Source: an uncultured Kiritimatiellota bacterium (GTDB taxonomy: Bacteria; Verrucomicrobiota; Kiritimatiellia; RFP12; UBA1067). Taken from it: DNA of 64,000 nucleotides. A program made the translations under genes and the position numbers. Positions 1 to 50,586 of this stretch are shown piece after piece (within the stretch, counting starts at the first letter, position 1; every line of letters starts with the position of its first letter). Under the pieces are notes generated by a model. It worked only from the letters and a program-made list of their open reading frames with translations. It was not told where the DNA came from and did no database searches. Location: positions 2,587 to 66,586 of the forward strand of contig CAKUCX010000002.1 of NCBI GenBank assembly GCA_934643865.1. Reading direction: 5' to 3'.

Positions 1-1332
1 ATGCGGCATGTCATCGACCGTGAAATCAACGCGCACGACAACATAGGCGCCCCCGGACAGCTCATGGGCGTGTATGACGCGAAGGAAGAGGAGAACATCG
101 TCGCACGCGCCTACCAGGCTGTGAAGAATGGCGCAGAGACCATTGCGGCCCTCGATTCGGCCATTGGCGAGGAGCGCGGCGGGACAGAGCCCGCCGCACA
201 GCACTCGGATGGTGAGGATAACGACTTCGACATCTTCTCTCTCGTAGGCGCTGGAGCTACGGCATTCGGCAACGATGAAAGTGTGAAGGATTCCGCGAAG
301 GCGCAGAAGAGCGAGCCGACGACGATATTCGCCTCCGAAAGCGACTATCTCGCCGCTGGCCTTGAGTTCATGCAGGGCGTGTCGCATTACAGATACGGGA
401 CGCTTCTCCGCGATGAACGCACAGGACTTCTTTCGCTCCCGATGACGGACGCTCTCAAATCATGGTGCAGACATGTCTTGCCTTACGAGCTGAGACGGCA
501 GATAGGCGACTCGAATGAGCTCAAGTTCACGACCGACGCCGTGGCGATGCAACGCGAGACACAATTTGCCCGTAGCCTGGCGGTGGCAGACTCTGATGAT
601 GAAGGCTCCGTTCCCGAAGAGGCCTGGCCGACAGTCTCCTACCTCTGGCCCCTCAATCCTGTCTCGCGCTGGATAACGGAGAACATTAACGCCACGTTTG
701 GATCGCTCTCCGCTCCTGTTCTTAGAATCGCCGGTCTCTCAAATCCCGTGTTCCTGATTTATGCGCAAGCCCCGAATGAACACGGTGAGCCCTTGGTTCA
801 GCAATGGTTTGTTGTTTCTTTCAAATGTGGCCGGACAGGGCCGGCCACACAAAACTCTTATCTGAGTGAAGTGTTGCCCGCTCCATCTGGCAACATCGCC
901 GCATTGCTTTCGCCATACGGGTTGGATACCCCTAAATTCTCCAATACCGCAGGGACGGATGAAACTCTTGGGTCAGATGAGATGGCCGTTCTCAATTCGC
1001 TGCGGCTTCCTGCAATAGAGGCGGTTAAGCCGCGTCTCGAGGAACTTGTTGCTGCATACGAAGCGGAGAATGCCCCTCGAAATGCGACACTTATGGAAAA
1101 GCTGAAGATCCGTCTCCGGGGTGCAATGGAGCAGCTGGAGTTTGTATTCGACGGCTACGATGAAGGCGTAAAGCGCATGCGCAGAAGATCGTTCGACAAC
1201 GCCAAGCGCAACAGACAGGACGCATATGACAACTTCAAGACGTGGACAGAGACGCACTGCACGCCGTCCCCGTACAGGCTATGCCAGATCATCGCAGTCC
1301 TGACGGGGAAGAAAGGAGGCGTCAATGGCTGA
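1..1332 (+). CDS. Hypothetical protein, 5'-truncated at the window edge. Its stop overlaps the start of the downstream methyltransferase (ATGGCTGA), so the two are translationally coupled. It carries an in-frame copy of the REP-like palindrome (aa segment KCGRTGPATQNSYLSEVLPAPSGNI).
   Basis: Long ORF in the supplied track running off the 5' edge. Start/stop overlap at 1325-1332. Palindrome tgtggccggacagggccggccaca at ~826-849 lies inside the ORF without breaking the frame. Confidence 0.5.
   Translation: MRHVIDREINAHDNIGAPGQLMGVYDAKEEENIVARAYQAVKNGAETIAALDSAIGEERGGTEPAAQHSDGEDNDFDIFSLVGAGATAFGNDESVKDSAKAQKSEPTTIFASESDYLAAGLEFMQGVSHYRYGTLLRDERTGLLSLPMTDALKSWCRHVLPYELRRQIGDSNELKFTTDAVAMQRETQFARSLAVADSDDEGSVPEEAWPTVSYLWPLNPVSRWITENINATFGSLSAPVLRIAGLSNPVFLIYAQAPNEHGEPLVQQWFVVSFKCGRTGPATQNSYLSEVLPAPSGNIAALLSPYGLDTPKFSNTAGTDETLGSDEMAVLNSLRLPAIEAVKPRLEELVAAYEAENAPRNATLMEKLKIRLRGAMEQLEFVFDGYDEGVKRMRRRSFDNAKRNRQDAYDNFKTWTETHCTPSPYRLCQIIAVLTGKKGGVNG
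824..895 (+). repeat. REP/MITE-like element, copy 1. Core 24-nt hairpin tgtggccggacagggccggccaca (9-bp stem, 6-nt loop), a conserved tail cacaaaactcttat, and a second module gtgttgcccgctccatctggcaaca. It sits in-frame inside the 1..1332 ORF.
   Basis: Direct sequence reading. The same core recurs at ~5754 and ~12783 in the same orientation. Confidence 0.8.
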
Positions 1333-4300
1333 GTTTATTGGCATCAGAAACGAGAACGAGTTTTACTTCGCCCATTACCTTTCGTCGCTCATGGACGACG
1401 AACTGAAGGAGATATGCTCGTCCGACGAGATGAAGGCCGCCTGCGACAAGCTCTACAAGCTCCAGCAGGAGTACCATGACTTGCAGGAGGCTCGGGAACT
1501 TGTCAAGCGTCGCCGCCCGGCTGCGTTTAGCGAGGACAGGACGGATTACTTTTCTAGACTCAGGGCGTTCCACTCCCATATTGCCGACATCCTTGGCTAT
1601 GCTGCTGACTGGATTTCACCAGGAACTCGTCTCTTCCCAGGCGCAAAGTTGACGGTCCCCGTCTCTGGCATTCTTGCCGGAAAGGATGGCAACGTACAAG
1701 CCGTCCTCATTGAATCCTGCTACGACTATGCGGCGAGCGTCCGTTTTTCAACTGAGGGCATTCTCGAGAATTTCCTGACATCGGAGCAGACAGCCGTCGA
1801 GGGCCTCCCCGAAGTCTCCAGGCAGATGCTTGCGGACAGGATATGCCTTGGCAAGTCAAAATCGGAAAAGCCGACCTGGGAGAACATCATCTCAAATGAG
1901 ATATTCTCCTCGGAAACTTCTCCCCGGTTCATAGTCGTATTGGGTGAGGATTCGATTCTGCTTGCAGATCAGAAAAAATGGCCAGAGAAGCGCACCCTCA
2001 TCTTCGAGCTGGATGAGATATATTCGCGGGGCGAACGAGCGACATTCAGGGCGATGGCAAGTCTTCTTTCCAAGACGGCTCTTGCGCCCGACGGCGCGAC
2101 GCCGCTTCCAGACAGGCTCGACGAGAACTCCCACAAGAACGCCTTTGGTGTCTCCAAGACGCTGCGCTATGCGATGCGTGAGGCGATTGAACTCCTTGGA
2201 AATGCGATATTGAGGGGAATGGGGAACGGGGAAGAGGGAGGGCGGCTGCCCTCAGCCGCCGAAGTATCGGCCCCTGCTCTTTCCAAAGAGTGCATCATTG
2301 TGATGTACCGCTTCCTGTTTGTGCTTTTCCTGGAGTCGCGCAAGGATCTCGGGTATTTCGAGACAACTCAGAATGTGGACGACATGTTCTGGAGTGCATA
2401 CGGCTTCGACCATCTTCGCGATCTCGAGACAGTGCCGCTCATGACAGACGCCGATAAAAGCGGGCACTACTTCGACCGCTCCATCAAGCAGCTGTTCGCA
2501 AAGATATGGTGGGGCATAGGAGAGAGGAAACAGGGAATAGGGAATAGGGAACAGGGGATAGCGAATGGGGAACAGGGAACTGGGAACAGGGAGGGTGTTG
2601 ATGCATTTAGAATCTTGCCATTGAAAGCACATCTCTTCGATCCAGAACGAACACCCTTGTTCAACGATGCAGAGATACCGAACGATGTTTGGCAGAGAAT
2701 CGTCTATTCGCTTTCCATTGGCGAGGCGGGAACGGGACGCCGCAAGCGCAAGGGCCGTATTTCGTATGCGCAACTCGGAATCCAACAGCTTGGCGCGGTC
2801 TATGAGGCGCTCCTGAGCTACACGGGCTTCAATGCGAAAACCGATCTCTATGAAGTCGCGGCGGCGGGTTCGGACATCTTCGACACCGGCTACTTCGTGA
2901 CAGCTGAAGACCTCAAGGACTACACGAACGAAGAAAAGGTCGCGAATTCAGACGGAACTCTCGTATGCCACCCAAGAGGGGCGTTCATCTACCGCATGGC
3001 TGGACGCGACCGCGAACGTTCGGCTTCATACTATACGCCGGAAGTCCTTACTCGCTGTCTCGTGCGTCTCGCCCTCAAGGAGCGCATCCCGGACGAAATG
3101 CCAGCGGACGAGGTGATGCAGCTTACCGTGTGCGAGCCAGCAATGGGGTCCGCCGCATTCTTGAACGAGGCAATCGACCAGCTCGCCGACATCTACCTCA
3201 AGAAGAAGCAGAAGGAGCTGAAGCGCACCATCCCCGTCGAGAGGTACGCGGCAGAAAAGGCTCGCGTAAAGATGGTGATAGCCGACAACAACGTCTTCGG
3301 CGTTGACCTGAACCCGACCGCCGCAGACCTCGCTGAAGTCTCGCTCTGGCTCGGCTCCATCGGTGGCGAGAGATTGCCGACCGGACAGGATTGCGACGAG
3401 CCGTACATCCCGTGGTTCGGCACCCAACTCAAGTGCGGCAACTCCATCATCGGATGCCGCCGTGAGGTCGTGTTCCGCGACGGAACGCGCAAGGCCGTTG
3501 GCTTCGGCGAGGATTTCCCGAAGAACGCCGTTTGGCACTTCCTCATACCCGACGAGGGCATGGCCATTAACCTTGACGCCGTCGTAAAAGGCATCGTAGG
3601 AGATGAAGTTGCCGAGCGGCTCAAGAAGTGGAAAAAGGCGTTTGCTCTCCCCGACAAAAAGCGACAGTACGAGAATTACGACAGAACCTGGAAGCGGATG
3701 AGCACGCTGTCTGAGGCGATTGACAAGATATGGAGAAGCGCGGCGGATGACATCGCCTCGCTCGACGAACGGACACGGGATGACGTGGCGTACTTTGGAC
3801 ACGAACCGAAGGCCAATGCAATCTCCGACTTGAAGACAAAAGACCGACAACTCTGGACGGAGCTTTCGCGTGACGAATACGGCAATATCGACTACTCGAA
3901 GTCGCTTGGTTCCGTATCTGACTATTTCCGCCTCAAGACGATCCTCGATCTTTGGTGTTCCCTTTGGTTTTGGCCGCTCGACAAGACGGAACGTCTGCCG
4001 ACTTGGGCTGATTTCGAGGCGGCCGTCAGGGTGCTGACAAGAAGCGACTTCGACGAGAAGGAACAGATGGAGCTGGACCTTGGCATCGGCGAGTTGCGCC
4101 TTACCACCGCCGGAACCGAGCTGGAAAAGGAATTCAAGAGGAACCCGACCCTTGGCAACCTTTACAAACTGTTCCCGTTCATCGAGACGTCCGAGGCAAT
4201 AGCCGAGCGTCATCACTTCCTGCACTGGGAGCTGGAGTTCGCGCCGGTGTTCAAGAATCGCGGCGGTTTCGACTTGATAATCGGAAACCCGCCGTGGGTG

Positions 4301-6181
4301 AATGTAGAATTTGATGAAGGTGGATTATTATCCGAATATGAGCCGAAGATCGCGGTACGCAATTATTCCGCTTCAGAAGTGGTGGCCGCAAGGAGGGGAT
4401 TGATATCAGATGAGACTGTCCATGATGGGTATTTAGACGAATATTCATGTGTTAACGGTCAACAGCATTTCCTAACATCTTCTAATAATTATCCTGATTT
4501 AGAGGGGATGAAGGCAAATCTGTTTCAGAATTTTGTCCCTTTAGCAATGAGGTTAATGAATCCTGACGCCATAACGGCATATGTCCATCCTGAAAATTTA
4601 TATTTGGATGCGAAAGGGGATAAAATTCGCCAAATGATTTATCCTAGGTTACTTTTACATGCGCAATTCAGAAATGAATTAAAGCTATTTGATATTGGGA
4701 ATACGCGTGTGTTTAGCCTCAATGTGTATGGACAGATAAAAGACCATGTCAAATTTAAGAATATCTCGACATTGTTCCACCCTTGTACGTTGGAGCAGTC
4801 TTTGAGTATGAGCGATTCAAGCGCTCCAATTCCGCTTGAGAAGACAAATGATGGTCATTGGAATTTGTGTGGTCATTGTGATAGGGTTGTAGATATTTCT
4901 AACGATGAATTGGCCTTGTTTGCAAAGTTTATTGATGGTGAAGGCGTTTCCCCATTGCAAACTAGATTACCTTCGATTTATTTGCGGCAGATAATAGGAA
5001 AGTTATTTCATGCATTTACAAATGTCCAATGCAAATTTGCTTCTAAAAACTTTGAGACTACTGAGTGTTGGGACCCTTCTGCTCACAATGAAGTTGGATT
5101 GATTGGAGGGAAAGCGACATTTCCATCAAATAGCTGTGATGAAATTTATTCTGGCCCGACCATCTTTGTCGCTAATCCAGTATATCAGACACCTCGCAAG
5201 AATTGTTCATCTCATCGCGATTATGAGATGGTTGACCTTACAGCAGTCAATGAAAGTTATCTTCCACGTTCGATTACAAATCGGAAAAGTGATTCAACTA
5301 CATATAGGGCCCATGTACCTGTTTGCCTTGGTAAGTGCATAAGTGATCAATTTAGAATTATTTGTAGATGTCGAATCGATCCCAAGGGGGAGCGAACATT
5401 GATACCGAGCATTTCCGCCAAAGAGTATTTGCATATAAATGGGATTATCTCTTATTGCTTTGACGATTTATCTGAATTGATCAATTCTTCAGGAACATGG
5501 TCTTCGATTCCATATGATTGGTTTATTCGTACGACCCAAAAAACTCATTTCCGAAAGGATATTGCACAATATCTTCCAGCCCTTCCTGACAACCCGATGA
5601 TTCGGGCACGTTCGCTTCTTTTGAATTGCGTGAACCGCGATTATGCTGATTTGTGGCGCGAGGCTTGGGATGATGCGTATTTGACTGATGGCTGGCTGTC
5701 GAGCGATCCAAGATTGACGAAGTGGGCTGATCATTTTGGGGGATGTGGCCGGACAGGGCCGGCCACACAACACTCTCATGAATGGCGGTGGGAGACGCCG
5801 CTTCGCACGCAACTCGACCGCCGTCAGGCGCTCGTTGAGCTTGATGTGATTGTGACGAAGGCACTGGGGTTGTCGCTTGATGATTTGCTGTTGATGTATC
5901 GCGTGTCGTTCCCAGTCCTGCGCAAGTACGAGGCCGACACCTACTACGATCAGAACGGACGGTGTGTGTTCTCGGCGAAGAGTGGCGAGTCGTATCTCTC
6001 GCGGCAGGAGTGGGAGTCAATCAAGGACATGAAGGAGGGCGAGTTCAAGAAGACGATCACCGAGACCGTCTTCAGCGACACGCTCACCGAGCGCACGATC
6101 ACCTACACGGCCCCGTTCTTCAAAAAGGATCGCGAGGCCGACTACAAAGAAGCCTGGGAAATGCTGGAGAAAAGGGATTGA
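1325..6181 (+). CDS. Large gamma-class N6-adenine DNA methyltransferase (PglX / Type IIG-IIL-like), 1618 aa, with a long N-terminal extension and a C-terminal TRD-like region.
   Basis: Motifs read from the translation: YTPE (motif X-like), CEPAMGSAAFL (motif I, FxGxG-like), GVDLNPTAADLAEVSLWL, CGNSIIG, HHFLHWELEFAPVF....GGFDLIIGNPPW (motif IV NPPW at nt ~4286-4297). The region after NPPW (nt ~4300-5750) is much more A+T-rich, as expected for a target-recognition domain. Confidence 0.75.
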   Translation: MAEFIGIRNENEFYFAHYLSSLMDDELKEICSSDEMKAACDKLYKLQQEYHDLQEARELVKRRRPAAFSEDRTDYFSRLRAFHSHIADILGYAADWISPGTRLFPGAKLTVPVSGILAGKDGNVQAVLIESCYDYAASVRFSTEGILENFLTSEQTAVEGLPEVSRQMLADRICLGKSKSEKPTWENIISNEIFSSETSPRFIVVLGEDSILLADQKKWPEKRTLIFELDEIYSRGERATFRAMASLLSKTALAPDGATPLPDRLDENSHKNAFGVSKTLRYAMREAIELLGNAILRGMGNGEEGGRLPSAAEVSAPALSKECIIVMYRFLFVLFLESRKDLGYFETTQNVDDMFWSAYGFDHLRDLETVPLMTDADKSGHYFDRSIKQLFAKIWWGIGERKQGIGNREQGIANGEQGTGNREGVDAFRILPLKAHLFDPERTPLFNDAEIPNDVWQRIVYSLSIGEAGTGRRKRKGRISYAQLGIQQLGAVYEALLSYTGFNAKTDLYEVAAAGSDIFDTGYFVTAEDLKDYTNEEKVANSDGTLVCHPRGAFIYRMAGRDRERSASYYTPEVLTRCLVRLALKERIPDEMPADEVMQLTVCEPAMGSAAFLNEAIDQLADIYLKKKQKELKRTIPVERYAAEKARVKMVIADNNVFGVDLNPTAADLAEVSLWLGSIGGERLPTGQDCDEPYIPWFGTQLKCGNSIIGCRREVVFRDGTRKAVGFGEDFPKNAVWHFLIPDEGMAINLDAVVKGIVGDEVAERLKKWKKAFALPDKKRQYENYDRTWKRMSTLSEAIDKIWRSAADDIASLDERTRDDVAYFGHEPKANAISDLKTKDRQLWTELSRDEYGNIDYSKSLGSVSDYFRLKTILDLWCSLWFWPLDKTERLPTWADFEAAVRVLTRSDFDEKEQMELDLGIGELRLTTAGTELEKEFKRNPTLGNLYKLFPFIETSEAIAERHHFLHWELEFAPVFKNRGGFDLIIGNPPWVNVEFDEGGLLSEYEPKIAVRNYSASEVVAARRGLISDETVHDGYLDEYSCVNGQQHFLTSSNNYPDLEGMKANLFQNFVPLAMRLMNPDAITAYVHPENLYLDAKGDKIRQMIYPRLLLHAQFRNELKLFDIGNTRVFSLNVYGQIKDHVKFKNISTLFHPCTLEQSLSMSDSSAPIPLEKTNDGHWNLCGHCDRVVDISNDELALFAKFIDGEGVSPLQTRLPSIYLRQIIGKLFHAFTNVQCKFASKNFETTECWDPSAHNEVGLIGGKATFPSNSCDEIYSGPTIFVANPVYQTPRKNCSSHRDYEMVDLTAVNESYLPRSITNRKSDSTTYRAHVPVCLGKCISDQFRIICRCRIDPKGERTLIPSISAKEYLHINGIISYCFDDLSELINSSGTWSSIPYDWFIRTTQKTHFRKDIAQYLPALPDNPMIRARSLLLNCVNRDYADLWREAWDDAYLTDGWLSSDPRLTKWADHFGGCGRTGPATQHSHEWRWETPLRTQLDRRQALVELDVIVTKALGLSLDDLLLMYRVSFPVLRKYEADTYYDQNGRCVFSAKSGESYLSRQEWESIKDMKEGEFKKTITETVFSDTLTERTITYTAPFFKKDREADYKEAWEMLEKRD
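5752..5789 (+). repeat. REP/MITE-like element, copy 2 (core hairpin plus cacaacactctcat tail only). It is in-frame inside the methyltransferase gene, at the junction between the low-GC TRD-like segment and the C-terminal region.
   Basis: atgtggccggacagggccggccacacaacactctcat read directly. It translates as GCGRTGPATQHSHE within the MTase ORF. Confidence 0.8.
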
Positions 6182-6199
6182 AACATAGGAGGTTTTTGT

Positions 6200-7435
6200 A
6201 TGTGGAATAAAGCAGAGGCTATAGACTCGTTGACGGTGTTTTACGGGACAATAGAACGCACGGTTGAAGACCCCACTACAACCACAAAGACATGGCGAAG
6301 GTTATGGATGGGCAAAGATAAGGAAATGGAGACCGTGTTCTATGCTCAAGATAAGTTAGATGTGGCTGTGGATTATCTGTTACAGAATAAGTCAATCGAT
6401 GGCAATTTTACGCGTAGTGGACTTTCAGCGTTAGTAGCAGAGCGCCTAGGTGTTGATTTTATTTCCTCTGCGAATTCTCCAAGGGAAAATGTTGAGACAT
6501 TGGTGAGTGAACTCGTCAATAAGAAACCAGAATTGATGAACGTGTACATGGTAATTCATGGTCTCGTGGTGCAACAACGGACAAGTATTGGAGAGTTTGA
6601 GTTTATCCCGGCTAAAGCCTATTCGAGCTTGGGCGTGAAATGTTTTCATCCACAGATGGAAACAAGTATCAAGGAACAGATGTGGCAGAATCAAGATCAT
6701 GTTAAGGTTCCAGTTCTAGCGTGTGAAGCAGCAAAAGCTAGGGAGAAAGCATACGCGGAATTCCAATGGCTTGAGAGCGCCGTGAGATTGTTCGTTGATT
6801 CTGACTTTTATGATATTGGAATAACGTCCTTCAACTATTCGCATGTTGAGAATTCTCTTGTTACGGCTGAAGATGGGCAGATGCGGGGAACGTCAGCCTC
6901 TCTGAAAGGATCGCCTGTGCCACTTCCGTTTGCACGGGTGTTTGCACCCGGAAATTGTCTATGCCGGGTCATCGATAGGCTGGGACGACAGGAGCGTGAT
7001 TTGTCGCAACTTCAGCAGAAAATACGACATGCTGTTTATCTTGGTGGATTATCTGTTAGGGAAACGACTCCTGGCGTGGCGTATTTTCTCTGTGTATCGG
7101 CAATGGAAGCATTGTTTCAGGCAGACACGAGTAAGTACGTTAGCCCTTCAATCGCGCAACAGATCGTTGAGGCGTTTTGTTATCTGATTGCGGACGAGGC
7201 AAAGCGTCGTGACGTGTTTGAACAAATGCGTTCTTTTTATGGTAAACGTTCCGCTTTTGCGCACGGAGGAAAGTCTGAAGTTACTGTCGAGGATGTGCAA
7301 TTGGTTCGCGCGTATCTGCGGGGTGCGATTTTAAAAATGATTGACGATCCGATTCTGTCTAAGTTAAGATCGTCTGAAGACGTGGCTACAAGAGTACGTG
7401 ATATTAAGTTTGGAGAGAAGGAGGCGGTGAAATGA
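6200..7435 (+). CDS. Hypothetical protein (411 aa) with a C-terminal HEPN-like Rx4H motif (YGKRSAFAHGG). It is the first gene of the PHP-ATPase/RT operon.
   Basis: ORF with RBS aggagg 8 nt upstream of the ATG at 6200. Its stop overlaps the start of the next gene (ATGA at 7432-7435). The motif R-S-A-F-A-H near the C-terminus matches the HEPN Rx4-6H signature (Abi_2/AbiD-F style R[SN]xxAH). Confidence 0.55.
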   Translation: MWNKAEAIDSLTVFYGTIERTVEDPTTTTKTWRRLWMGKDKEMETVFYAQDKLDVAVDYLLQNKSIDGNFTRSGLSALVAERLGVDFISSANSPRENVETLVSELVNKKPELMNVYMVIHGLVVQQRTSIGEFEFIPAKAYSSLGVKCFHPQMETSIKEQMWQNQDHVKVPVLACEAAKAREKAYAEFQWLESAVRLFVDSDFYDIGITSFNYSHVENSLVTAEDGQMRGTSASLKGSPVPLPFARVFAPGNCLCRVIDRLGRQERDLSQLQQKIRHAVYLGGLSVRETTPGVAYFLCVSAMEALFQADTSKYVSPSIAQQIVEAFCYLIADEAKRRDVFEQMRSFYGKRSAFAHGGKSEVTVEDVQLVRAYLRGAILKMIDDPILSKLRSSEDVATRVRDIKFGEKEAVK

Positions 7436-10095
7436 AGTATCCGAATGGTTCAGAATGGCGCAAATGGGATTTGCACATTCATACGACGGCTTCGGACGGG
7501 AAGGCGACGCCGTCCGACGTCGTTGAACAGGCACTTGCCGCTGGCGTGAGTGTTATTGCTATTACAGATCACCATACGGCGGCGAATGTCGATGAAGTGA
7601 AGAGTTTGGCGAAAGCCACAGGAGGGCGGCTGTCTGTAATTTCTGGAATTGAATTTCGGACGGAACTTGGTAAAAGTTCAGTTCATATGATTGGTTTGTT
7701 TCCAGATGTGTATCAGGGACAGCTATTGACGGCCTCGGCGTTACATGACCTTGTATTGTGCCCGTTGGGATTGTCGCGTACGGCGATTATTGCCGAGGGT
7801 AGAAAGTATTCGGATTCGGTTGATGAAGTACAACTCTTTAAGACCGGGATGTTTAAACTGCAGGTCAATTTCCAGACGGCTGCGGAACTTATTCGTAAGT
7901 ATGGGGGATTGGTGTCGGTTCATAATGGAACAAAGACGAACGGAATAGATGATCAGATGCGGCATGATGGTCGTGGAATAAGGGATGTGCCCTTATCGGA
8001 GAGTTTGGGACCATTGAAGGAGGAACTTTTACAAAAGTATGTTGATATTTGTGAAGTGAAAAAATCCGTTGAGGCGCCGTTTTATTTGACTGGATTTGGC
8101 CGCGCGTCAATTGTGGCTTCGGATGCTCATGAAATAAATGAGATCGGGACGAAGCCTGTTTGGATTAAAGCCGATCCTACATTTGATGGTCTACGTCAGA
8201 TTCTGTTTGAGCCTGCTGATCGGGTTCGAATTCAGGACGATATGCCAGAACAAAAAGCACCATATCAAACCCTGAGCCATGTTTGCTTGAAAGAAGCCGG
8301 TTTTTGGGATCATCCGCTTCCGCTGAATCCAAGTCTGGTTACCATTATAGGAGGACGTTCTTCCGGCAAGTCAAATCTTCTGTCGGCAATCGCTTGTAAA
8401 GTCGGTTACGCTGATTTGCAGGCTGGTTACGACAGCGAAGAATCATCCTCATTACGTTTTGTTAAAGATCATCTTTCTGCTGTGAGTGTTGCGTGGGCGG
8501 ATGGAGTTGAGGGCCCTGACAAGATGGTTGAGTATTTCCCTCAAGGATATATGATTGGTATTGCGGATAATCCTGGAAGAATTATGCCTATAGTGTGGGA
8601 CATACTTAAAGAGAATCCCGACAATCAACGATTGAGAGAAGAATTTGATCGACAGTTGAATGATTTGAAAAGCACCATTGCGACTGAGTGTTCAAATCTT
8701 TTCACTCAACGGGAAGCACTCCGAAAACTTGATGCAGAAATTAAAGAGAGAGGCGGGATTAAGAGTCATGAACTTGAAGTAAAACGGCTTAGGGATGAAA
8801 TGTCGCAACTTAAAAAACAGCATATGAATATGACTGATGATGAGTTGCGCGAATTTGAGGCTTTGCAGGAACAAGAACGCGAACTGCTGGCTAAACTGCA
8901 AGAGGTGGATGATGATCAGATAGCGTTGAAGTCAATAGAAGATATGCCTGAGATTGATTTCTTCCCAAATATTGACATACCGCTATTCTCTGCTGGTGTC
9001 CAAGATAAGATCGATAAAAAGATCAGTGAAATTAGACGGCAAGGGCTTGTCGCTTGGCAGAGGTTAGTTTCCGATGTTGGGCAGTCGTTGAAGTCGCAAC
9101 AAGACCTCTATGTTAAGAAGCTGAAGGAATTGCGTGAGGGAAACTTGTACAAGAAAGGTGCAGCACATATCGCGGAGAATAGTCAGCTTAAAGCCATTGA
9201 GCAACGTATTCGTCATGAAGAGGACTTGCTGGCGGACGTCAAGAAGATCGTTGATCGTAAACATGATTTGGCGCAACGAAATCGCACTACGATTGAAAAC
9301 TTGGCGAGTCATCACTATGAGCTTTATAAGGTTTCGTGCAAGTTTGCAGATGCTGTAAAGCTTGAGAAGAACGGGCTTTCCATAGCTGGTAGTGTTGCCA
9401 TAAGACAAGATGATTTGAGTCGGTATATCGACGGTCGTATGACGCGAGTTTCTAAGGAACAAAAAGAGTTATATGATAAGATTCTTGCGCATGACTCTTT
9501 CGATGGTGATAAGGTAAATAGCTTTTTGAATCAGACAATGCAGGGAGCAGTGCAATACAATAAAGATGTTGACGAAAAGACAGTTGTTATTGAGCTCTTG
9601 TCGACATGCTGGTTTAAAGTGAATTACGATATTGTTTATCAAAATGATCGACTATCGCAAATGTCACCAGGCAAGCGCTCCTTTGTTATTTTGCAGCTCT
9701 TGCTCGAATTTAGCAACAAGAAATGTCCTATTCTCATTGATCAACCGGAGGATAATCTTGATAACCGCGCAATCTTCAGGGACCTTGTGACATATCTACG
9801 CGCCAAGAAAAGGGAACGTCAGATCATTCTAGTGACGCACAATCCCAATGTTGTTGTTGGAGCTGATGCGGAGCAGGTGATTGTTGCTAATCAGCATGGT
9901 AACGATAGCGTTAATGCAGACAATATGCGATTTGCATATGTTTCTGGTTCGTTGGAAGCGTCGTGGCCGAAAATTTCGCCGACAGCGCCAATACTTGAGT
10001 CGCAGGGCATCCGTGAGCATGTTTGCGAGATTCTTGAAGGCGGTGAAGACGCCTTTAGAAAGAGGGAATCCAAGTATGGCTTGTGGCACAAGTGA
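7432..10095 (+). CDS. PHP-family phosphoesterase domain fused to an SbcC/SMC-like ABC ATPase with a central coiled-coil (887 aa). It resembles the single-gene 'ppl' defence protein architecture.
   Basis: N-terminus carries PHP motifs WDLHIHTTASDG, ITDHHT, GIEF, ASDAH. Walker A is GGRSSGKSNLL (aa ~300). A ~300-aa charged heptad-rich region is rich in K/E/L/Q (LRKLDAEIKERGG...ELLAKLQEVDD...). The C-terminal lobe has the signature-like SPGKRS, Walker B/D-loop ILIDQPEDNLD and H-loop ILVTHNPNV. Confidence 0.75.
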   Translation: MKYPNGSEWRKWDLHIHTTASDGKATPSDVVEQALAAGVSVIAITDHHTAANVDEVKSLAKATGGRLSVISGIEFRTELGKSSVHMIGLFPDVYQGQLLTASALHDLVLCPLGLSRTAIIAEGRKYSDSVDEVQLFKTGMFKLQVNFQTAAELIRKYGGLVSVHNGTKTNGIDDQMRHDGRGIRDVPLSESLGPLKEELLQKYVDICEVKKSVEAPFYLTGFGRASIVASDAHEINEIGTKPVWIKADPTFDGLRQILFEPADRVRIQDDMPEQKAPYQTLSHVCLKEAGFWDHPLPLNPSLVTIIGGRSSGKSNLLSAIACKVGYADLQAGYDSEESSSLRFVKDHLSAVSVAWADGVEGPDKMVEYFPQGYMIGIADNPGRIMPIVWDILKENPDNQRLREEFDRQLNDLKSTIATECSNLFTQREALRKLDAEIKERGGIKSHELEVKRLRDEMSQLKKQHMNMTDDELREFEALQEQERELLAKLQEVDDDQIALKSIEDMPEIDFFPNIDIPLFSAGVQDKIDKKISEIRRQGLVAWQRLVSDVGQSLKSQQDLYVKKLKELREGNLYKKGAAHIAENSQLKAIEQRIRHEEDLLADVKKIVDRKHDLAQRNRTTIENLASHHYELYKVSCKFADAVKLEKNGLSIAGSVAIRQDDLSRYIDGRMTRVSKEQKELYDKILAHDSFDGDKVNSFLNQTMQGAVQYNKDVDEKTVVIELLSTCWFKVNYDIVYQNDRLSQMSPGKRSFVILQLLLEFSNKKCPILIDQPEDNLDNRAIFRDLVTYLRAKKRERQIILVTHNPNVVVGADAEQVIVANQHGNDSVNADNMRFAYVSGSLEASWPKISPTAPILESQGIREHVCEILEGGEDAFRKRESKYGLWHK

Positions 10096-10110
10096 GGAAG
10101 TTTGTTGGTT

Positions 10111-11616
10111 ATGACTGTGCTTGAATTGTCAAATGAAAAGGCGTTGCAGTTCTTTATGGATCCGCAGAGTTACGGATCTACGGAGTTGCCGCCTTATTTT
10201 GATTTTTCAAGGACTTTGAATGTTGCTGAGTCATATATTGGACGCGTACGGGTTTCAAAGACACTTCTGCGCAAGGCGAGTGACGTTGAGGGGGTGAATT
10301 ATACCCTCGTGGATAATAAAGATGGCAAATATGCATGGCGACCGTTGCAATTTATTCATCCATTTCTCTATGCAAAACTTTGCCATGAGATAACTGCACC
10401 CGAAAATTGGGTCTTAATTTGTTCCAGATTCAAAGAGTTCGCTGGGATTCCGGCTATTCGATGCGCAAGTTATCCGTTGGTTAAGACTGTGAAGCCAAAA
10501 ATCAAGGCGGAACAGATCCTTGGCTGGTGGTCGAAGTTTGAGCAAGAATCGTTGGTGTCGGCGATGCGATATCGTTCCATGATTGTTACAGATGTGACAG
10601 ATTGCTATGGCTCAATTTATACGCATTCAATCGCTTGGGCATTACATGGAAAGGACGTTGCGAAGCAGAACAGGGATGGCTCTTTGCTCGGTAATACGAT
10701 AGATCGGTATATTCGTGCCATGCGATATGGCCAGACGAATGGCATCCCGCAGGGGTCAGTGTTGATGGATTTTATAGCTGAGATCGTTCTAGGAAGCATT
10801 GATGAGTGCCTCTATAAGAAACTGGAAGAGGAGAATATTCACGGATATGAGATACTGAGATATCGTGATGATTATCGCATTTTTGTCAACGATACTTCGA
10901 TCGGCGAAAAGGTCTTAAAGACATTGACGATTGTTCTTGCTGAATATGGCATGCGGCTCAATTCGGCGAAAACAAAGATGTCTGTCGATATAGTACGGGA
11001 TTCGGTTAAGGCCGATAAGGTTGCCTGGTTCTCGATTGAAAAGAATTATGAAACGTTGACAGCGGAAAAGAAGTTGTTGCTGCTATACGATCATGCGTCA
11101 CGGTTCCCCAACGCGGGCAGTGTGATGAAACCATTGGTTGATCTGCCAGAGGCGATTAAGTCTGCCTACTTTGGTGATCGGAATCAGATATCGGCCTGTA
11201 TATCAATCGCGACGGAGTTGGCCTATCGTAATCCACGTTGTTATCAATTGTGCATGGCTGTTGTGGCTCAGTTGTTGGACAGAATGGATGTTGTGACGCG
11301 CAGAGAAGTCGCAGGGGACATCTTGACTAAGTTTGGCCATTTGCCGAATACTGGTAGCTTGCAACTGTGGCTTCAGAGAATTATGATTCCATGTGGAATA
11401 TCTCTGGATTATCCTGAGGCGCTGTGTAAACGTGTTGAGAATGTGCCATGTAAGATATGGGAGAATGGATGGCTGGTAGAAGAGCCGGAGCTCGCTAATG
11501 CATTGGAAAGTGCGGAGATTGTGAACAATGAAGTTTTGCGTAACATCAATCCAACGATGTCGGATGATGAGATCAATCTCTTCATCATGCATTATCAGGA
11601 AAATTATCAGGGATAA
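10111..11616 (+). CDS. Reverse transcriptase of the defence-associated Abi/UG type (~500 aa, RT domain plus alpha-helical C-terminal region). No intron or retron RNA structure is evident.
   Basis: RBS GAGGAAG ~10 nt upstream of ATG 10111 (the track start at 10102 is a TTG). RT motifs: A = IVTDVTDCYGSIYTHSI, B' = NGIPQGSVLMDFIAEIVLG, C = ILRYRDDYRIFVN (YxDD), D = GMRLNSAKTKM. It begins 15 nt after the PHP-ATPase stop. Confidence 0.75.
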   Translation: MTVLELSNEKALQFFMDPQSYGSTELPPYFDFSRTLNVAESYIGRVRVSKTLLRKASDVEGVNYTLVDNKDGKYAWRPLQFIHPFLYAKLCHEITAPENWVLICSRFKEFAGIPAIRCASYPLVKTVKPKIKAEQILGWWSKFEQESLVSAMRYRSMIVTDVTDCYGSIYTHSIAWALHGKDVAKQNRDGSLLGNTIDRYIRAMRYGQTNGIPQGSVLMDFIAEIVLGSIDECLYKKLEEENIHGYEILRYRDDYRIFVNDTSIGEKVLKTLTIVLAEYGMRLNSAKTKMSVDIVRDSVKADKVAWFSIEKNYETLTAEKKLLLLYDHASRFPNAGSVMKPLVDLPEAIKSAYFGDRNQISACISIATELAYRNPRCYQLCMAVVAQLLDRMDVVTRREVAGDILTKFGHLPNTGSLQLWLQRIMIPCGISLDYPEALCKRVENVPCKIWENGWLVEEPELANALESAEIVNNEVLRNINPTMSDDEINLFIMHYQENYQG

Positions 11617-11634
11617 GTTTCAGAGGGGATTAAC

Positions 11635-12306
11635 ATGCGAAAATTTCGTAAAGGAATAAATCTGGAAGCGAGAATCAAATCGCTGGAGTTGACAAGGCGT
11701 TGGCTTGTGTTATGTGGTGGCTTACTGTCGTTGTTTGGTCTATCTCTTGGCGGTATGCTTTACAATGGATACTGCTTGTTGAAGGAGCGTGAAGCGGAGT
11801 TGAGGTCGGATTTTTCAAGGGTCACGATGGAATATATTTCGGCGACAAATGATTTGGCGGCGGTGCGAGCGGAGAGTCAATCTACGGCAATGACGGTCGC
11901 AAAGAAATGCGAAGAGCTGACGGGGCTGTGTTCTGAGATTGTGAGAAAAGCAGAAACAGCGAATGAGCTGGTGGAAGAGATCGGGTCGGATTGTCGTCTT
12001 GCACAAGACATGATTCGTAATCTTGATGAGTATGTTGCCAAGAGCTTAAAGACGTCTCCGCAAAGGTTTACAGTTGATGTGTCAGGGACCATGGCAAAAT
12101 GTACGCTTGTTGATGGTGTTGGCGTTCCATATTCAAGAACGGTGGCGGGGACGAGGGCAAACGCGTTGGTTGTTGTTCCTTCTGGATGTGTCTGCGTTGT
12201 GAGGCTTTCTGGGAAGATGTGTCGTGTCAGAATTCAATCTAAGATTCGCGACCGTGTTATTGTGGAGAATGGCGGTAAGATGGGTAAGGTTGAGTACTTT
12301 GATTAA
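11635..12306 (+). CDS. Small protein (223 aa) with a single N-terminal transmembrane helix (WLVLCGGLLSLFGLSLGGMLY) and a beta-rich Cys-containing C-terminal part. It is the last gene of the operon.
   Basis: ORF 18 nt downstream of the RT stop, with RBS-like gagggga. Hydrophobic stretch at aa ~22-43. Confidence 0.45.
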   Translation: MRKFRKGINLEARIKSLELTRRWLVLCGGLLSLFGLSLGGMLYNGYCLLKEREAELRSDFSRVTMEYISATNDLAAVRAESQSTAMTVAKKCEELTGLCSEIVRKAETANELVEEIGSDCRLAQDMIRNLDEYVAKSLKTSPQRFTVDVSGTMAKCTLVDGVGVPYSRTVAGTRANALVVVPSGCVCVVRLSGKMCRVRIQSKIRDRVIVENGGKMGKVEYFD

Positions 12307-12378
12307 GACAGAAAAGGCAAGCGTATGGTAATCCGCGGACATTGATAGTACTCGGGAGAAGAGAGCGGTTTAGACAAC

Positions 12379-13527
12379 ATGAAGACGCAAACGGCAACAG
12401 TAAAGATGACGAAAGCCACCATGAAGCGGCTGAAGGGCTTTGATTACAAGAAGCTCTATTTCTACATGGTGACGCTGAAACGCCGGAAAGGCCTGCGGCC
12501 ATTTTGCGAGATTACGAAGGTGAAAGAGCCGCCAAAAGACGCAAAGGGAAGACCGCGCTATCTAATCGCCAACGAGTTGACCGAGGCTTTTTCGCGTGTG
12601 ATCAGCGAGTTTCACACGAAGTGGTGGGGTATTTGGCCGATCGAATGCTTCATTATCATGCCCGATCATCTTCACCTACTGATCCACATCAAAGATACTG
12701 GCGATCAGATGGCGCTTGGGAAGTATGTTTACCAGTTGATGAAGGCGCTTGCGGTGGAATACTGGCGCTTGACGGGGCAGGATGTGGCCGGACGGGGCCG
12801 GCCACACAACACTCTTATCGAAGAGAAAGGGGGCTCTTTTAATCAGAGTGGTGTGTTGCCCGCTCCATCGTGCAACATTCCCCAGCCCGCTCCATCGGGC
12901 AACACCTTCCAGTCCGCTCCATCGGGCAACAATGCGAAGCTCGCCCCCATCTTCGAGCGCGATTGGCATGATTGGATTGTTAAGAAAGACGGGCAGCTTG
13001 CGGCCTTTACGCGCTACATTCGCGAAAACCCCGAGCGGGCTTGGCTCAGGCAACAGAACCGGCAGTATTTCGGCACGGTTCTGAAAGTTTCCTTTCTCGG
13101 GCGTGAGTGGTTCGCCTACGGCAATCTGGCGATTCTTGAGTTGCCGGTCTTGAAGGCAGTGAAGGGCCATCGCGCCACGAAGCCTGGTTCGCCCGAATGG
13201 CAGGCGCTCGTTGATGAATGTGCGCGCATCGGGCCGGGCGGCGCAGGCGTGGGCACGTTCATGAGCCCGCTGGAGAAAGAATGCGGCAACGCCATCGCCG
13301 CAGCCGGCGGCAAGTGGGTGGTCCTCTCGCCTGAGGGCTTCCATGAACGTTGGCATCCAGTGCGGCAATACGAAAAGTATTGCGCCGAAGGGCGAATGCT
13401 CTTCCTCTCGCTTTATCCGGTGATGGATCGCCAGCCGACCAAGCAGGAGCTTTACCATCGCTGCCACGAGATGGGTGATATCGCGGTGGCAGGGCTAGGT
13501 GGTAGTGACTGCGGAAATGTTGTATAA
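12379..13527 (+). CDS. IS200/IS605-family Y1 (HUH) transposase, RAYT-like, carrying an in-frame ~55-aa REP/tandem-repeat insertion between its HUH motif and its catalytic Tyr motif.
   Basis: KLYFYMVTLKRRKGL (first beta-strand, cf. YHxVWxxKYRR), IMPDHLHLLIHI (HUH) at aa ~94-104, FTRYIRENPERAW (YIxxNP Tyr motif) at aa ~210-220. HUH-to-Tyr spacing is ~114 aa, which becomes ~60 aa (canonical) once the repeat-encoded segment is removed. Confidence 0.65.
   Translation: MKTQTATVKMTKATMKRLKGFDYKKLYFYMVTLKRRKGLRPFCEITKVKEPPKDAKGRPRYLIANELTEAFSRVISEFHTKWWGIWPIECFIIMPDHLHLLIHIKDTGDQMALGKYVYQLMKALAVEYWRLTGQDVAGRGRPHNTLIEEKGGSFNQSGVLPAPSCNIPQPAPSGNTFQSAPSGNNAKLAPIFERDWHDWIVKKDGQLAAFTRYIRENPERAWLRQQNRQYFGTVLKVSFLGREWFAYGNLAILELPVLKAVKGHRATKPGSPEWQALVDECARIGPGGAGVGTFMSPLEKECGNAIAAAGGKWVVLSPEGFHERWHPVRQYEKYCAEGRMLFLSLYPVMDRQPTKQELYHRCHEMGDIAVAGLGGSDCGNVV
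12781..12934 (+). repeat. REP/MITE-like element, copy 3. The core hairpin variant tgtggccggacggggccggccaca and tail are followed by three tandem ~27-bp units (c[ca]g[ct]ccgctccatcgggcaaca-like). All of it is in-frame inside the RAYT-like transposase gene.
   Basis: Direct reading. It translates as AGRGRPHNTLIEEKGGSFNQSGVLPAPSCNIPQPAPSGNTFQSAPSGNN, which sits between the HUH motif and the catalytic Tyr motif of the transposase. Confidence 0.8.
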
Positions 13528-50523: not shown

Positions 50524-50577
50524 GTTTTAGGTTTTAGGTTTTAGGTTTCAGGTTTTAGCTGTTAGGTTTTAGGTTTT
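50521..50577 (+). repeat. Heptanucleotide tandem repeat (TAGGTTT) x ~8 (units 5-6 imperfect) in the 63-bp gap between the two paralogous SBP genes. The first unit includes the TAG stop of the upstream gene.
   Basis: taggttttaggttttaggttttaggtttcaggttttagctgttaggttttaggttttagagg read directly. Confidence 0.8.
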
Positions 50578-50586
50578 AGAGGAGAG

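What the first reader, a model, noticed from the sequence alone, without database searches (positions are those of the whole stretch)
824..12934. GC-rich palindromic element inserted in-frame into three different protein-coding genes (RPE-like behaviour)
Seen in sequence: the hairpin tgtggccgg-ac[ag]ggg-ccggccaca plus the conserved tail cacaa[ac]actct[ct]at occurs at ~826, ~5754 and ~12783. All three copies are in the same orientation and each sits inside a long ORF without interrupting the reading frame (peptide ..CGRTGPATQ[NH]S..). Copies 1 and 3 share a second module (gtgttgcccgctccatc[tg]gcaaca). Copy 3 adds three tandem ~27-bp units encoding PAPSGN-like peptide repeats. Established: REPs and MITEs are normally intergenic. 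In-frame genic insertion of palindromic elements is a hallmark of a few families (Rickettsia RPEs, some Correia/NEMIS cases). Inference: an RPE-like mobile palindrome that creates small peptide insertions in defence proteins, possibly tolerated in surface loops.
Basis: seen in the sequence. Interest (0 to 1): 0.75.

Follow-up and report, generated by a model that had tools for sequence, protein, structure and literature searches.

The report
In-frame REP-like hairpins near RAYT gene
A GC-rich hairpin repeat sits in frame inside three genes of a bacterial anti-phage island; it is a REP/REPIN-type element whose ancestral position is inside a REP-transposase-like (RAYT-like) gene next door, a behaviour already described in other bacteria.

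Summary
The repeat is real. The 24-nt palindrome occurs at 826, 5744 and 12783, all on the + strand and inside ORFs. A fourth, degenerate copy lies at 169-241. Copy 3 is read in a different frame from copies 1 and 2.

The palindrome is arm P1 of a roughly 70-82-nt three-hairpin unit. P3 is approximately the reverse complement of P1, so the unit resembles a REPIN doublet. Stems covary strongly across relatives.

The host of copy 3 is a two-domain protein: a HUH-Y1 nuclease fold closest to E. coli TnpA_REP, fused to a DprA-like domain. More than 1000 homologues, apparently Kiritimatiellia, were found. In the 109 of the best 120 that could be measured, the loop between the HUH and Tyr motifs varies in length, and every locus read at DNA level carries variants of the element in that gene.

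Copies 1 and 2 are secondary. Close orthologues lack them (net +39 and +30 nt). They replace linker sequence, with no target-site duplication.

No copy was found in about 190 kb outside the RAYT-like gene and island genes. A 6.9-kb circular metagenomic contig closes exactly at the element.

In-frame REPs inside RAYT genes and other genes are published. I rate this a new member of a known kind, of moderate interest.

The parts
820..901 (+). Copy 1, a full three-hairpin unit inside the DrmD-like SNF2 helicase ORF (1-1332). P1 is 827-848, P2 is 849-872, P3 is 873-894.
   Evidence: Covariance model hit of 90.9 bits. The DNA fold shows three hairpins, z = -4.2. The empty allele L020 has 32 nt where the window has 71 nt, with identical flanks.
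169..241 (+). Degenerate, 3'-truncated copy in the same helicase ORF. P1 (176-197) has a different but perfectly paired stem, GCGGCGGG/CCCGCCGC, followed by the tail ACAGCACTC.
   Evidence: 26.1 bits. At the orthologous site L016 1874-1955 carries a full copy (89.9 bits), and L007 is decayed or empty.
5738..5779 (+). Copy 2, a truncated unit (P1 5744-5767 plus the 5' half of P2) inside the type IIG / DrmMI-like methyltransferase ORF (1325-6181).
   Evidence: 36.4 bits. It is absent from orthologues L002 and L010, net +30 nt.
12777..12885 (+). Copy 3, a full unit with an expanded P2 loop. P1 is 12784-12805, the P2 arms are 12806-12814 and 12846-12854, and P3 is 12855-12876. It lies between the HUH and Tyr motifs of the RAYT-like gene.
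   Evidence: (86.9 bits). The same site is occupied in L003, L008, L016, L017, L018, L019, L011 and L013.
12860..12931 (+). Three units with a 27-nt period. Each repeats the loop and 3' arm of P3 (CCGCTCCATCGGGCAACA) and encodes PAPSGN-like repeats.
   Evidence: The same kind of repeat occurs in the distant relative L011 and varies in number between orthologues.
12379..13527 (+). RAYT-like HUH-Y1 nuclease fused to a DprA-like domain (382 aa). It is the ancestral host and the candidate mobilising enzyme of the element.
1..1332 (+). C-terminal part of the DrmD-like SNF2 helicase, host of copies at 169 and 820. The ORF is cut by the start of the window.
   Evidence: The full-length orthologue in L007 matches PADLOC DrmD at E = 7e-79 and Pfam SNF2 and Helicase_C.
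1325..6181 (+). Type IIG restriction-modification / DrmMI-like N6-adenine methyltransferase (1618 aa), host of copy 2.
   Evidence: Pfam Eco57I and N6_Mtase. PADLOC REase_MTase_IIG E = 6e-208 and DrmMI E = 4e-43.
6200..12306 (+). Segment between copies 2 and 3: a 411-aa ORF, a Ppl-like PHP-ATPase, an AbiP2-type reverse transcriptase and a 223-aa ORF. Relatives carry different genes here.
   Evidence: L016 has only a 601-aa ATPase here. L002/L003 and L009 have that ATPase plus a 304-317-aa ORF and three further ORFs of 280, 116 and 582 aa, which I judged SIR2-like and HerA-like by reading the translations only.

Best explanation
The palindrome is one arm of a REP/REPIN-type element. A full unit is about 70-82 nt and has three adjacent hairpins. 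P1 is GTGGCCGG-ACRGGG-CCGGCCAC followed by the conserved tail ACAAMACTC. P2 is formed by that tail and has a loop of variable length. P3 is GTTGCCCG-CTCCAT-CGGGCAAC, which is essentially P1 in inverted orientation.

The ancestral position of the element is inside the coding sequence of a RAYT-like HUH-Y1 nuclease fused to a DprA-like domain. It sits in the surface loop between the HUH and catalytic Tyr motifs.

From there, full copies or 3'-truncated copies (P1 plus tail) have been copied locally and strand-specifically into length-variable linker regions of neighbouring genes of this island. Only copies that keep the reading frame open survive.

Shown:
- the anatomy of the element;
- covariation of the stems;
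- presence/absence polymorphism at several sites;
- the HUH-Y1 fold of the host protein;
- conservation of the insert site across the family;
- confinement of copies to the RAYT-like gene and island genes.

Inferred:
- the RAYT-like enzyme nicks and joins the single-stranded hairpin, as E. coli TnpA_REP does with REPs, and so seeds the copying;
- copying is completed by microhomology-guided repair or template switching rather than precise transposition;
- the encoded peptides are by-products.
For: Anatomy and structure:
- The core occurs three times against 0 expected by chance.
- About 25 instances share the P1-P2-P3 layout. Single-strand DNA folds reproduce it, with z from -2.6 to -5.6.
- In 19 top-strand copies, 95.5% of cells are paired. 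14 of 24 pairs show double compensatory changes, and 0 of 1000 shuffles reach these values.
- P1 stems differ between loci but stay paired: GTGGCCGG, GCGGGGCT, GGTGCCGG, AATGGCCG and GCGCCGGG.
- The model also hits the reverse strand about 25 bits lower, as expected for an inverted doublet.

Enzyme:
- HUH and Tyr are invariant in 62 homologues.

Ancestral position in the RAYT-like gene:
- 1152 homologues were found. In 109 of the best 120, the HUH-to-W distance ranges from 41 to 139 residues and carries element-encoded peptides in two frames.
- Unrelated genomic contexts (L011, L013, L017-L019) carry their own variant only in or next to that gene.

Secondary copies:
- Empty alleles exist for copy 1 (L020), copy 2 and the DruE-like site. 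L016 has 7 copies.
- All 7 independent sites have the same orientation, although 2 of 3 frames are open in either orientation.

Precedent:
- In-frame REPs inside tnpA_REP genes between HuH and Y, and in unrelated genes, are published (PMC6006769, PMC3733652).
Against: - No biochemical link between the protein and the hairpin was or could be tested.
- Pfam Y1_Tnp matches are below threshold (E = 0.016-0.09), and the PDB sequence-profile hit has E = 0.17. The assignment rests on the predicted fold and the motifs.
- Filled sites replace 24-32 nt of host sequence and use microhomology, with no clean insertion. This is not the signature of IS200/IS605 peel-and-paste transposition and could arise without any HUH enzyme.
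- No complete genome was available, so the low-copy, local distribution rests on about 190 kb of flanking DNA and one strict pattern scan of species-representative genomes.
- All island genes lie on the same strand. The orientation bias therefore cannot be assigned to replication, transcription or the enzyme.
Confidence: 0.6

Rival explanations
1. The copies spread by enzyme-independent mechanisms: microhomology-mediated gene conversion or replication template switching between hairpin-forming sequences. The RAYT-like gene is merely the oldest and most tolerant host, and its nuclease plays no part.
For: - Copy 1 replaces 32 nt with 71 nt. Its right junction lies in a 10-of-11-nt match between host TCTGGCAACAT and element TCGGGCAACAT.
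- The DruE-like copy also replaces linker sequence.
- No target-site duplication or fixed target sequence was seen.
- Tandem 27-nt units and duplicated P1 peptides indicate slippage.
Against: - It does not explain why every lineage keeps a paired hairpin with a conserved loop and tail at the same loop of a HUH nuclease whose closest structural relative binds such hairpins.
- It does not explain why copies up to 12 kb away all have one orientation.
Confidence: 0.2
2. The element copies are cis sites for programmed excision or exchange of DNA segments. Same-orientation copies in the methyltransferase and the RAYT-like gene bracket a variable cassette of defence genes. The HUH enzyme joins two copies to release a circle, as IS200/IS605 TnpA does with transposon ends.
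For: - L009 is a circular contig with a 55-nt terminal overlap. It equals the segment between the copy-2 site and the copy-3 site and is closed exactly at the element. The junction gives an in-frame chimeric ORF.
- The shared repeat is only about 40 nt, shorter than k = 55. Junction reads must therefore exist (inference from how de Bruijn assemblers work).
- Gene content between the two sites differs among relatives.
Against: - There is one contig from one sample. A tandem duplication or a rare recombinant would give the same contig.
- L002/L003 carry the same cassette without any element at the methyltransferase site, so the element is not needed to hold the cassette.
- Most family members sit among housekeeping genes with no second copy outside the gene.
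Confidence: 0.08
3. The hairpins are selected for a function in the mRNA or the protein, for example translational pausing, transcript stability or flexible Pro/Gly-rich linkers. Their similarity reflects convergent or concerted selection.
For: - Stems are maintained by compensatory change.
- Copies sit in linkers.
- Published REPs can act as RNA elements (PMC3733652).
Against: - The same site is read in different frames, giving unrelated peptides, and varies from near zero to about 100 extra residues.
- Close alleles lack the insert with otherwise identical flanks.
- There is no excess of G-T over C-A mismatches on the sense strand (3 versus 6).
- The Rfam scan found nothing.
Confidence: 0.07
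4. The copies are made by the island's reverse transcriptase (AbiP2-type, 10102-11616) through RNA-templated copying.
For: - A reverse transcriptase gene lies between copies 2 and 3.
- Partial copies are truncated on one side only.
Against: - Relatives with as many or more copies have no reverse transcriptase in the island (L016, L002/L003).
- Family members in housekeeping contexts carry multiple copies without any reverse transcriptase nearby.
Confidence: 0.02

Closest known systems
REP / REPIN elements with their RAYT (TnpA_REP) genes. The closest case is TnpA_REP subclass 2.4 (Bertels RAYT group 4), whose REPs are inserted in frame inside the tnpA_REP gene (Quentin et al. 2018, PMC6006769; Bertels & Rainey 2011, PMC3116915).
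   Same: - A HUH-Y1 nuclease with the TnpA_REP fold.
- Short GC-rich hairpins with a conserved unpaired or tail sequence.
- Two hairpins in inverted orientation with a short spacer, forming a REPIN-like doublet.
- P1 in this lineage starts GTGG and ends CCAC, like the published 'double foot' REPs.
[quoted passage not shown]
   Different: - Motifs are DH[LI]H, WHDW and YIRENP rather than NH[IFV]H, WQ and YIxNNP.
- The insert lies between helix alphaC and strand beta4, not between beta3 and alphaC.
- The protein carries a C-terminal DprA-like domain.
- No sign of a high-copy, extragenic, genome-wide population was seen. Copies were found only in the gene and in neighbouring island genes.
- The foot sequence is not conserved across the family.
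Intragenic in-frame REPs of Opitutus terrae and other bacteria (Di Nocera et al. 2013, PMC3733652).
   Same: - REP singlets and dimers encode about 10-30 residues inside ORFs without breaking them, often in helicase, repair and replication-type proteins.
- O. terrae is a verrucomicrobium. Its closeness to Kiritimatiellia within the PVC group rests on my own knowledge.
- A second, GTAG-tagged REP is also in frame in this window (16732-16757).
   Different: Those families are abundant and mostly intergenic, with GTAG or CGTC tags. Here, intragenic copies are all that was found.
Rickettsia palindromic elements (RPEs; cited in PMC3733652 and PMC1779305).
   Same: Palindromic repeats are inserted in frame in protein-coding genes and presumably tolerated in surface loops.
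   Different: - Different sequence family and taxon.
- RPEs are dispersed genome-wide, and no associated transposase is known (my own knowledge).
- Here there is a candidate enzyme gene that itself hosts the element.
IS200/IS605 transposition (ISHp608, ISDra2 TnpA) and its derived hairpin-ended miniature elements.
   Same: - A Y1 HUH fold.
- Recognition of sub-terminal hairpins on one DNA strand.
- Excised circular junctions, compare the L009 circle.
   Different: Those elements insert precisely 3' of a fixed tetra- or pentanucleotide with clean empty sites. Here host sequence is replaced and no fixed target is seen.

Membership tests
REP/REPIN-RAYT system (REPtron) | Associated protein is a Y1 HUH nuclease of the TnpA_REP/IS200 superfamily with HUH and catalytic Tyr motifs | tested here: met
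REP/REPIN-RAYT system (REPtron) | Repeat unit is a 20-40-nt imperfect palindrome with a conserved tag or foot (GTAG/GT[AG]G) | tested here: inconclusive
   P1 is a 22-24-nt palindrome. In the window lineage it begins GTGG and ends CCAC ('double foot'). Other lineages have GCGG, GGTG, AATG or GCGC. The conserved unpaired part is the loop AYRGNN and the 3' tail ACAAMACTC.
REP/REPIN-RAYT system (REPtron) | REPIN: two REPs in inverted orientation separated by a short spacer | tested here: met
   P3 is approximately the reverse complement of P1, and the P1 and P3 loops are complementary. The covariance model hits both strands, 102 versus 78 bits.
REP/REPIN-RAYT system (REPtron) | High copy number, dispersed, predominantly extragenic | tested here: not met
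   The model search of 242,860 nt found no hit outside the RAYT-like gene (plus or minus about 300 nt) and island genes. A strict pattern scan of 185,579 species genomes found only the orthologous island or gene copies plus three unrelated hairpins. No complete genome was available.
REP/REPIN-RAYT system (REPtron) | REPs flank the RAYT gene | tested here: inconclusive
   L015 has copies at both gene ends, one spanning the stop codon, and L019 has one just upstream. In most loci the copies are inside the ORF.
REP/REPIN-RAYT system (REPtron) | The RAYT binds, cleaves and rejoins its REP as single-stranded DNA | not testable with these tools
   This needs biochemistry with the purified protein and hairpin oligonucleotides.
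TnpA_REP subclass 2.4 (PMC6006769) | [quoted passage not shown] | tested here: met
TnpA_REP subclass 2.4 (PMC6006769) | Subclass motifs NH[IFV]H / WQ / YIxNNP and the insert between beta3 and alphaC | tested here: not met
   The family has DH[LI]H, WHDW and YIRENP. The insert lies between helix 114-131 and strand 148-157 of the model, that is alphaC to beta4.
Rickettsia palindromic elements (RPE) | Palindromic repeat inserted in frame in ORFs that stay open | tested here: met
   with empty alleles.
Rickettsia palindromic elements (RPE) | Member of the RPE sequence families (CGTC-tagged, Rickettsia) dispersed across the genome | tested here: not met
   The sequence and tag differ. The loci are Kiritimatiellia. 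The distribution is local.
IS200/IS605-type miniature element | Precise insertion next to a fixed short target, leaving clean empty sites | tested here: not met
   Copy 1 puts 71 nt in place of 32 nt. The DruE-like copy puts 81 nt in place of 24-29 nt. No common target sequence was seen.

The most novel reading that the evidence does not exclude
The hairpin doublet is the cis-acting site of a previously undescribed RAYT-DprA fusion enzyme. The enzyme works locally, nicking same-orientation copies and joining them. This both seeds new in-frame copies in neighbouring genes and excises the DNA between two copies as a circle. That would make it an HUH-driven way of exchanging defence-gene cassettes between a methyltransferase gene and the nuclease gene.
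Probability: 0.1. Interest if true: 0.8.

Novelty: new member of a known kind. Interest (0 to 1): 0.42.

Why it matters
How REP-type repeats are copied is still unsettled. This family offers unusually clean material for that question:
- a low-copy element whose copies lie within a few kilobases of the candidate enzyme gene;
- recent filled and empty alleles with identical flanks;
- junctions that point to replacement by microhomology rather than classical transposition.

It also shows that anti-phage genes (a DISARM-like helicase, a type IIG methyltransferase and a DruE-like helicase) can be remodelled in frame by such repeats. Recombination between copies can rearrange the island.

The fusion of a RAYT-like nuclease with a DprA-like single-strand-DNA-binding domain is a testable lead for what domesticated Y1 nucleases do.

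Tried and rejected
- Rfam scan of 1-27000 at E <= 1 found no known RNA family.
- The viral contig scan gave no match.
- Three of the six genome pattern hits (Permianibacter, a Pseudomonadota MAG, an Armatimonadota MAG) are unrelated intergenic hairpins that share only the stem.
- DGR, retron or reverse-transcriptase copying was rejected, because relatives without a reverse transcriptase have as many copies or more.
- A clean transposon insertion with a target-site duplication was sought at three filled/empty pairs and not found.
- I considered whether the L009 junction is an assembly artefact. The shared repeat (about 40 nt) is shorter than the 55-nt terminal overlap. I therefore treat the junction as real but of unknown form (circle or tandem duplication).
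- Pfam and PDB sequence searches alone could not place the copy-3 host. Structure prediction was needed.
- The helicase homologue search returned only six proteins, but one of them gave the key empty allele.
- The first MAFFT alignment of element copies misregistered P1 of the L015 and L018 variants. The covariance model realignment was used instead. Two of its ten seed rows had the long P2 loop trimmed by hand, for model building only.
Full report
OBSERVATION

The 24-nt palindrome TGTGGCCGGACRGGGCCGGCCACA occurs exactly three times in the window, at 826, 5744 and 12783. All three copies are on the + strand, and none is expected by chance. Each is followed by the tail CACAAMACTCTYAT. Each lies inside a long ORF that stays open: 1-1332, 1325-6181 and 12379-13527.

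Two details of the finding are off. The middle copy is at 5744, not about 5754. Copy 3 is read in a different frame (DVAGRGRPHNTLI) from copies 1 and 2 (CGRTGPATQ[NH]S). The second module and the three 27-nt-spaced units after copy 3 are real.

A fourth, degenerate copy lies at 169-241 in the first ORF. Its stem has a different sequence but is perfectly paired.

CONTEXT

The first 27 kb of the window has 45-57% GC, against about 70% for the rest. This low-GC part is an anti-phage island. It contains:
- a DrmD-like SNF2 helicase (ORF 1-1332, cut by the window start; full length in L007);
- a type IIG / DrmMI-like methyltransferase;
- a 411-aa ORF, a Ppl-like PHP-ATPase, an AbiP2-type reverse transcriptase and a 223-aa ORF;
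- the host of copy 3;
- a Schlafen/AlbA_2 protein;
- a DruE-like helicase of 2040 aa.

Related loci come from Kiritimatiellia metagenome-assembled genomes from the goat omasum and elsewhere.

ANATOMY OF THE ELEMENT

About 25 instances from the window and relatives show that the palindrome is arm P1 of a three-hairpin unit:
- P1 is an 8-9-bp stem with the loop AYRGNN.
- P1 is followed directly by ACAAMACTC, which pairs with GAGTGGTGT to form P2. The P2 loop ranges from 4 nt to about 90 nt.
- P2 is followed directly by P3, GTTGCCNG-NYCCRT-CNGGCAAC.

P3 is essentially P1 in reverse complement, and the two loops are complementary. The unit is therefore an inverted doublet with a palindromic spacer, which is the REPIN layout. 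Single-strand DNA folding reproduces the three stems, with z from -2.6 to -5.6.

A covariance model was built from ten copies. It hits both strands, with the reverse strand about 25 bits lower. In 19 top-strand copies, 95.5% of cells are paired. 14 of 24 pairs show double compensatory changes, and no shuffle out of 1000 reaches these values. This alignment was fitted to the model, so it leans towards the structure. The P1 stems listed (GTGGCCGG, GCGGGGCT, GGTGCCGG, AATGGCCG, GCGCCGGG) are nevertheless unambiguous.

Sense-strand G-T mismatches (3) do not exceed C-A mismatches (6). This speaks weakly for a DNA-level palindrome rather than an mRNA structure.

Partial copies keep P1 plus the tail and are cut on the 3' side. 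Examples are window copy 2, the window 169 copy, L016 4278 and the copy after the NPPW motif in L002, L010 and L016.

THE HOST OF COPY 3

Pfam and PADLOC gave nothing significant for this protein. Short-linker homologues give sub-threshold Y1_Tnp matches. A family profile hits ISDra2 TnpA at E = 0.17, aligned on the MPDHVHLL motif.

The HUH histidines and the Tyr of YIRENP are invariant. The protein is therefore a RAYT-like nuclease fused to a DprA-like domain.

THE ELEMENT'S ANCESTRAL POSITION IS THIS GENE

The family has 1152 homologues at E <= 0.001. In 109 of the best 120, the distance from HUH to the conserved W ranges from 41 to 139 residues. The intervening segment encodes variants of the P1 and P3 peptides in two frames, tandem duplications, and other hairpin types. 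Only a few sequences are nearly empty. One of those, L015, still retains the 3' end of the unit.

The gene sits in many unrelated neighbourhoods, mostly among housekeeping genes. In each of these loci the model finds the locus's own stem variant only inside or immediately next to this gene:
- L011 has three or four copies in the gene.
- L015 has one at each gene end.
- L019 has one upstream, one mid-gene and one near the C-terminus.

The insert lies in the loop between helix 114-131 and strand 148-157 of the model.

COPIES 1 AND 2 ARE SECONDARY

Copy 1:
- L020 (protein P0122) has flanks 100% identical to the window for 115 nt upstream and 120 nt downstream.
- It carries 32 nt (VECGKSGFKIG) where the window has 71 nt, a net gain of 39 nt in the window.
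- More distant homologues resemble the empty form.
- The right junction lies inside the 3' arm of P3. There the host TCTGGCAACAT matches the element TCGGGCAACAT at 10 of 11 positions. This explains the mismatch in P3 of copy 1.

Copy 2 is absent from L002 and L010, a net gain of 30 nt in the window.

Relatives carry copies at sites that are empty in the window:
- after the NPPW motif of the methyltransferase (L002, L010, L016);
- in the methyltransferase N-terminal linker (L016 and L007), where the window has a different tandem repeat;
- in the DruE-like helicase (L016), where 81 nt replace 24-29 nt, a net gain of 54-57 nt.

L016 has seven copies in 20 kb. No target-site duplication or common target sequence is seen, and host linker sequence is replaced.

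All seven independent sites have the same orientation. The canonical unit is open in two of three frames in either orientation. Stop codons therefore do not force the bias (about p = 0.008 under a 50:50 null). All island genes share that strand, however, so the cause of the bias is unresolved.

DISTRIBUTION

In 242,860 nt searched, no hit lies outside the RAYT-like gene and the island genes. The 51 kb of the window beyond copy 3 has none.

A strict pattern scan of one genome per species found only orthologous copies in two Kiritimatiellia MAGs, plus three unrelated hairpins. The metagenome scan found one orthologous island and L009. The viral scan found nothing.

This does not look like a high-copy dispersed REP family. 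No complete genome could be examined.

RECOMBINATION AT THE ELEMENT

L009 is a 6998-nt contig with a 55-nt terminal overlap, so it is circular in the assembly. It equals the segment between the copy-2 site of the methyltransferase and the copy-3 site of the RAYT-like gene in the L002/L003 arrangement. It is closed exactly at the element. The junction gives an in-frame chimeric ORF: the RAYT-like N-terminal part, then GGCGRTGPATQHS, then the methyltransferase C-terminal part.

The shared repeat is about 40 nt, shorter than 55. Junction-spanning reads must therefore exist; this is an inference from how de Bruijn graph assemblers work. Whether the contig is a free circle, a tandem duplication or a rare recombinant cannot be told.

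The genes between the two sites differ among relatives. L002/L003 hold the same cassette without an element in the methyltransferase, so the element is not required for the cassette.

In L005 the element is joined directly to the DprA-like part of the gene.

COMPARISON WITH WHAT IS KNOWN

- Quentin et al. 2018 (PMC6006769) classify Y1 HUH proteins. For TnpA_REP subclass 2.4 they report REPs inserted in frame inside the tnpA_REP gene between HuH and Y, 'double foot' REPs (GT[AG]G ... C[TC]AC), and REP insertions in unrelated genes.
- Di Nocera et al. 2013 (PMC3733652) list in-frame intragenic REPs in several species. Most are in the verrucomicrobium Opitutus terrae and in Rickettsia conorii (the RPEs), often in helicase and repair genes.
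- RAYTs are typically single-copy and associated with REPINs (PMC5581495).

The window's element fits this kind. It differs in four respects:
- the protein motifs are DH[LI]H, WHDW and YIRENP;
- the insert position is alphaC to beta4;
- the protein carries the DprA-like fusion;
- copies appear confined to the gene and its neighbours.

MECHANISM

The most likely account is that the RAYT-like nuclease recognises the single-stranded P1 hairpin with its loop and tail and nicks there. Copying into nearby single-stranded DNA is then completed by microhomology-guided repair or template switching. Selection keeps only in-frame copies in tolerant linkers.

The structure, the polymorphism and the fold are shown. 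The enzymatic step is inferred.

Rivals, in order of my confidence:
- enzyme-independent gene conversion or template switching (0.2);
- programmed excision or cassette exchange (0.08);
- a selected mRNA or peptide function (0.07);
- reverse-transcriptase copying (0.02).

VERDICT

The phenomenon is documented, so I rate it a new member of a known kind with moderate interest. Its value is as clean material for studying how REP-type repeats are copied, and for the RAYT-DprA fusion.

Noticed in passing
window 16732-16757 (also L016 14538, L008 6319, L013 11938, L014 2673): A second palindromic repeat, GGTCACGC-gggac-GCGTGACC followed by CTACC, is GTAG-tagged on the opposite strand. It lies in frame in the DruE-like helicase ORF. 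The identical 25-mer occurs in an intergenic cluster of GC-rich hairpins just downstream of the RAYT-like gene of an unrelated locus.
   Followed up: partly
L009 (whole contig, 6998 nt): This is a circular metagenomic contig with a 55-nt terminal overlap. It equals the island segment between two element copies and is closed at the element. The junction creates an in-frame chimeric ORF of the RAYT-like N-terminal part and the methyltransferase C-terminal part.
   Followed up: partly
window 6200-12306 versus L016 7980-10000 and L002/L003: The genes between the methyltransferase and the RAYT-like gene differ between relatives. The window has a Ppl-like PHP-ATPase and an AbiP2 reverse transcriptase. 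One relative has a 601-aa ATPase only. Another has that ATPase plus a 304-317-aa ORF and ORFs of 280, 116 and 582 aa. I judged the 280-aa and 582-aa ORFs SIR2-like and HerA-like by eye; they were not domain-searched.
   Followed up: partly
window 1-27000 versus 27000-64000: There is a sharp GC step: 45-57% in the island against about 70% in the rest of the window. The island looks horizontally acquired or compositionally distinct.
   Followed up: no
window about 2516-2640: A tandem repeat of GGGAA(T/C)AGG-type units encodes GIGNREQ-like peptide repeats in a methyltransferase linker. At the same site L016 and L007 carry a copy of the hairpin element instead, and L002 has neither.
   Followed up: partly
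L010 740-800 and L016 6190-6260: Additional GC-rich perfect palindromes (GGCGTGCCGCGCACGCC and GGCGCGCTCGCCGAGCGCGCC) lie in frame directly after the copy that follows the NPPW motif. They are absent from the L002 orthologue.
   Followed up: no
window 14791-14820: A 13-bp perfect hairpin (TCTGTGAAATGGA-gagt-TCCATTTCACAGA) lies inside the 3' part of the Schlafen/AlbA_2 ORF. A related GTGAAATGG hairpin occurs in the L003 orthologue.
   Followed up: no
window 49813-51260 and 50522-50591: Two tandem paralogous segments spaced about 800 nt apart (74-89% identity) are separated by a run of AGGTTTT heptamer repeats.
   Followed up: no
L011 19901-20310: An intergenic cluster holds five copies of the hairpin GGCGCGTTG-tcct-CAACGCGCC. 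This is a conventional REP-like array in a Kiritimatiellia contig.
   Followed up: no
L020 2672-2760: In this close relative the DrmD-like helicase gene is truncated at its 5' end and abuts unrelated genes (Bmp, phosphoribosyltransferase). The island is partly deleted or rearranged there.
   Followed up: no
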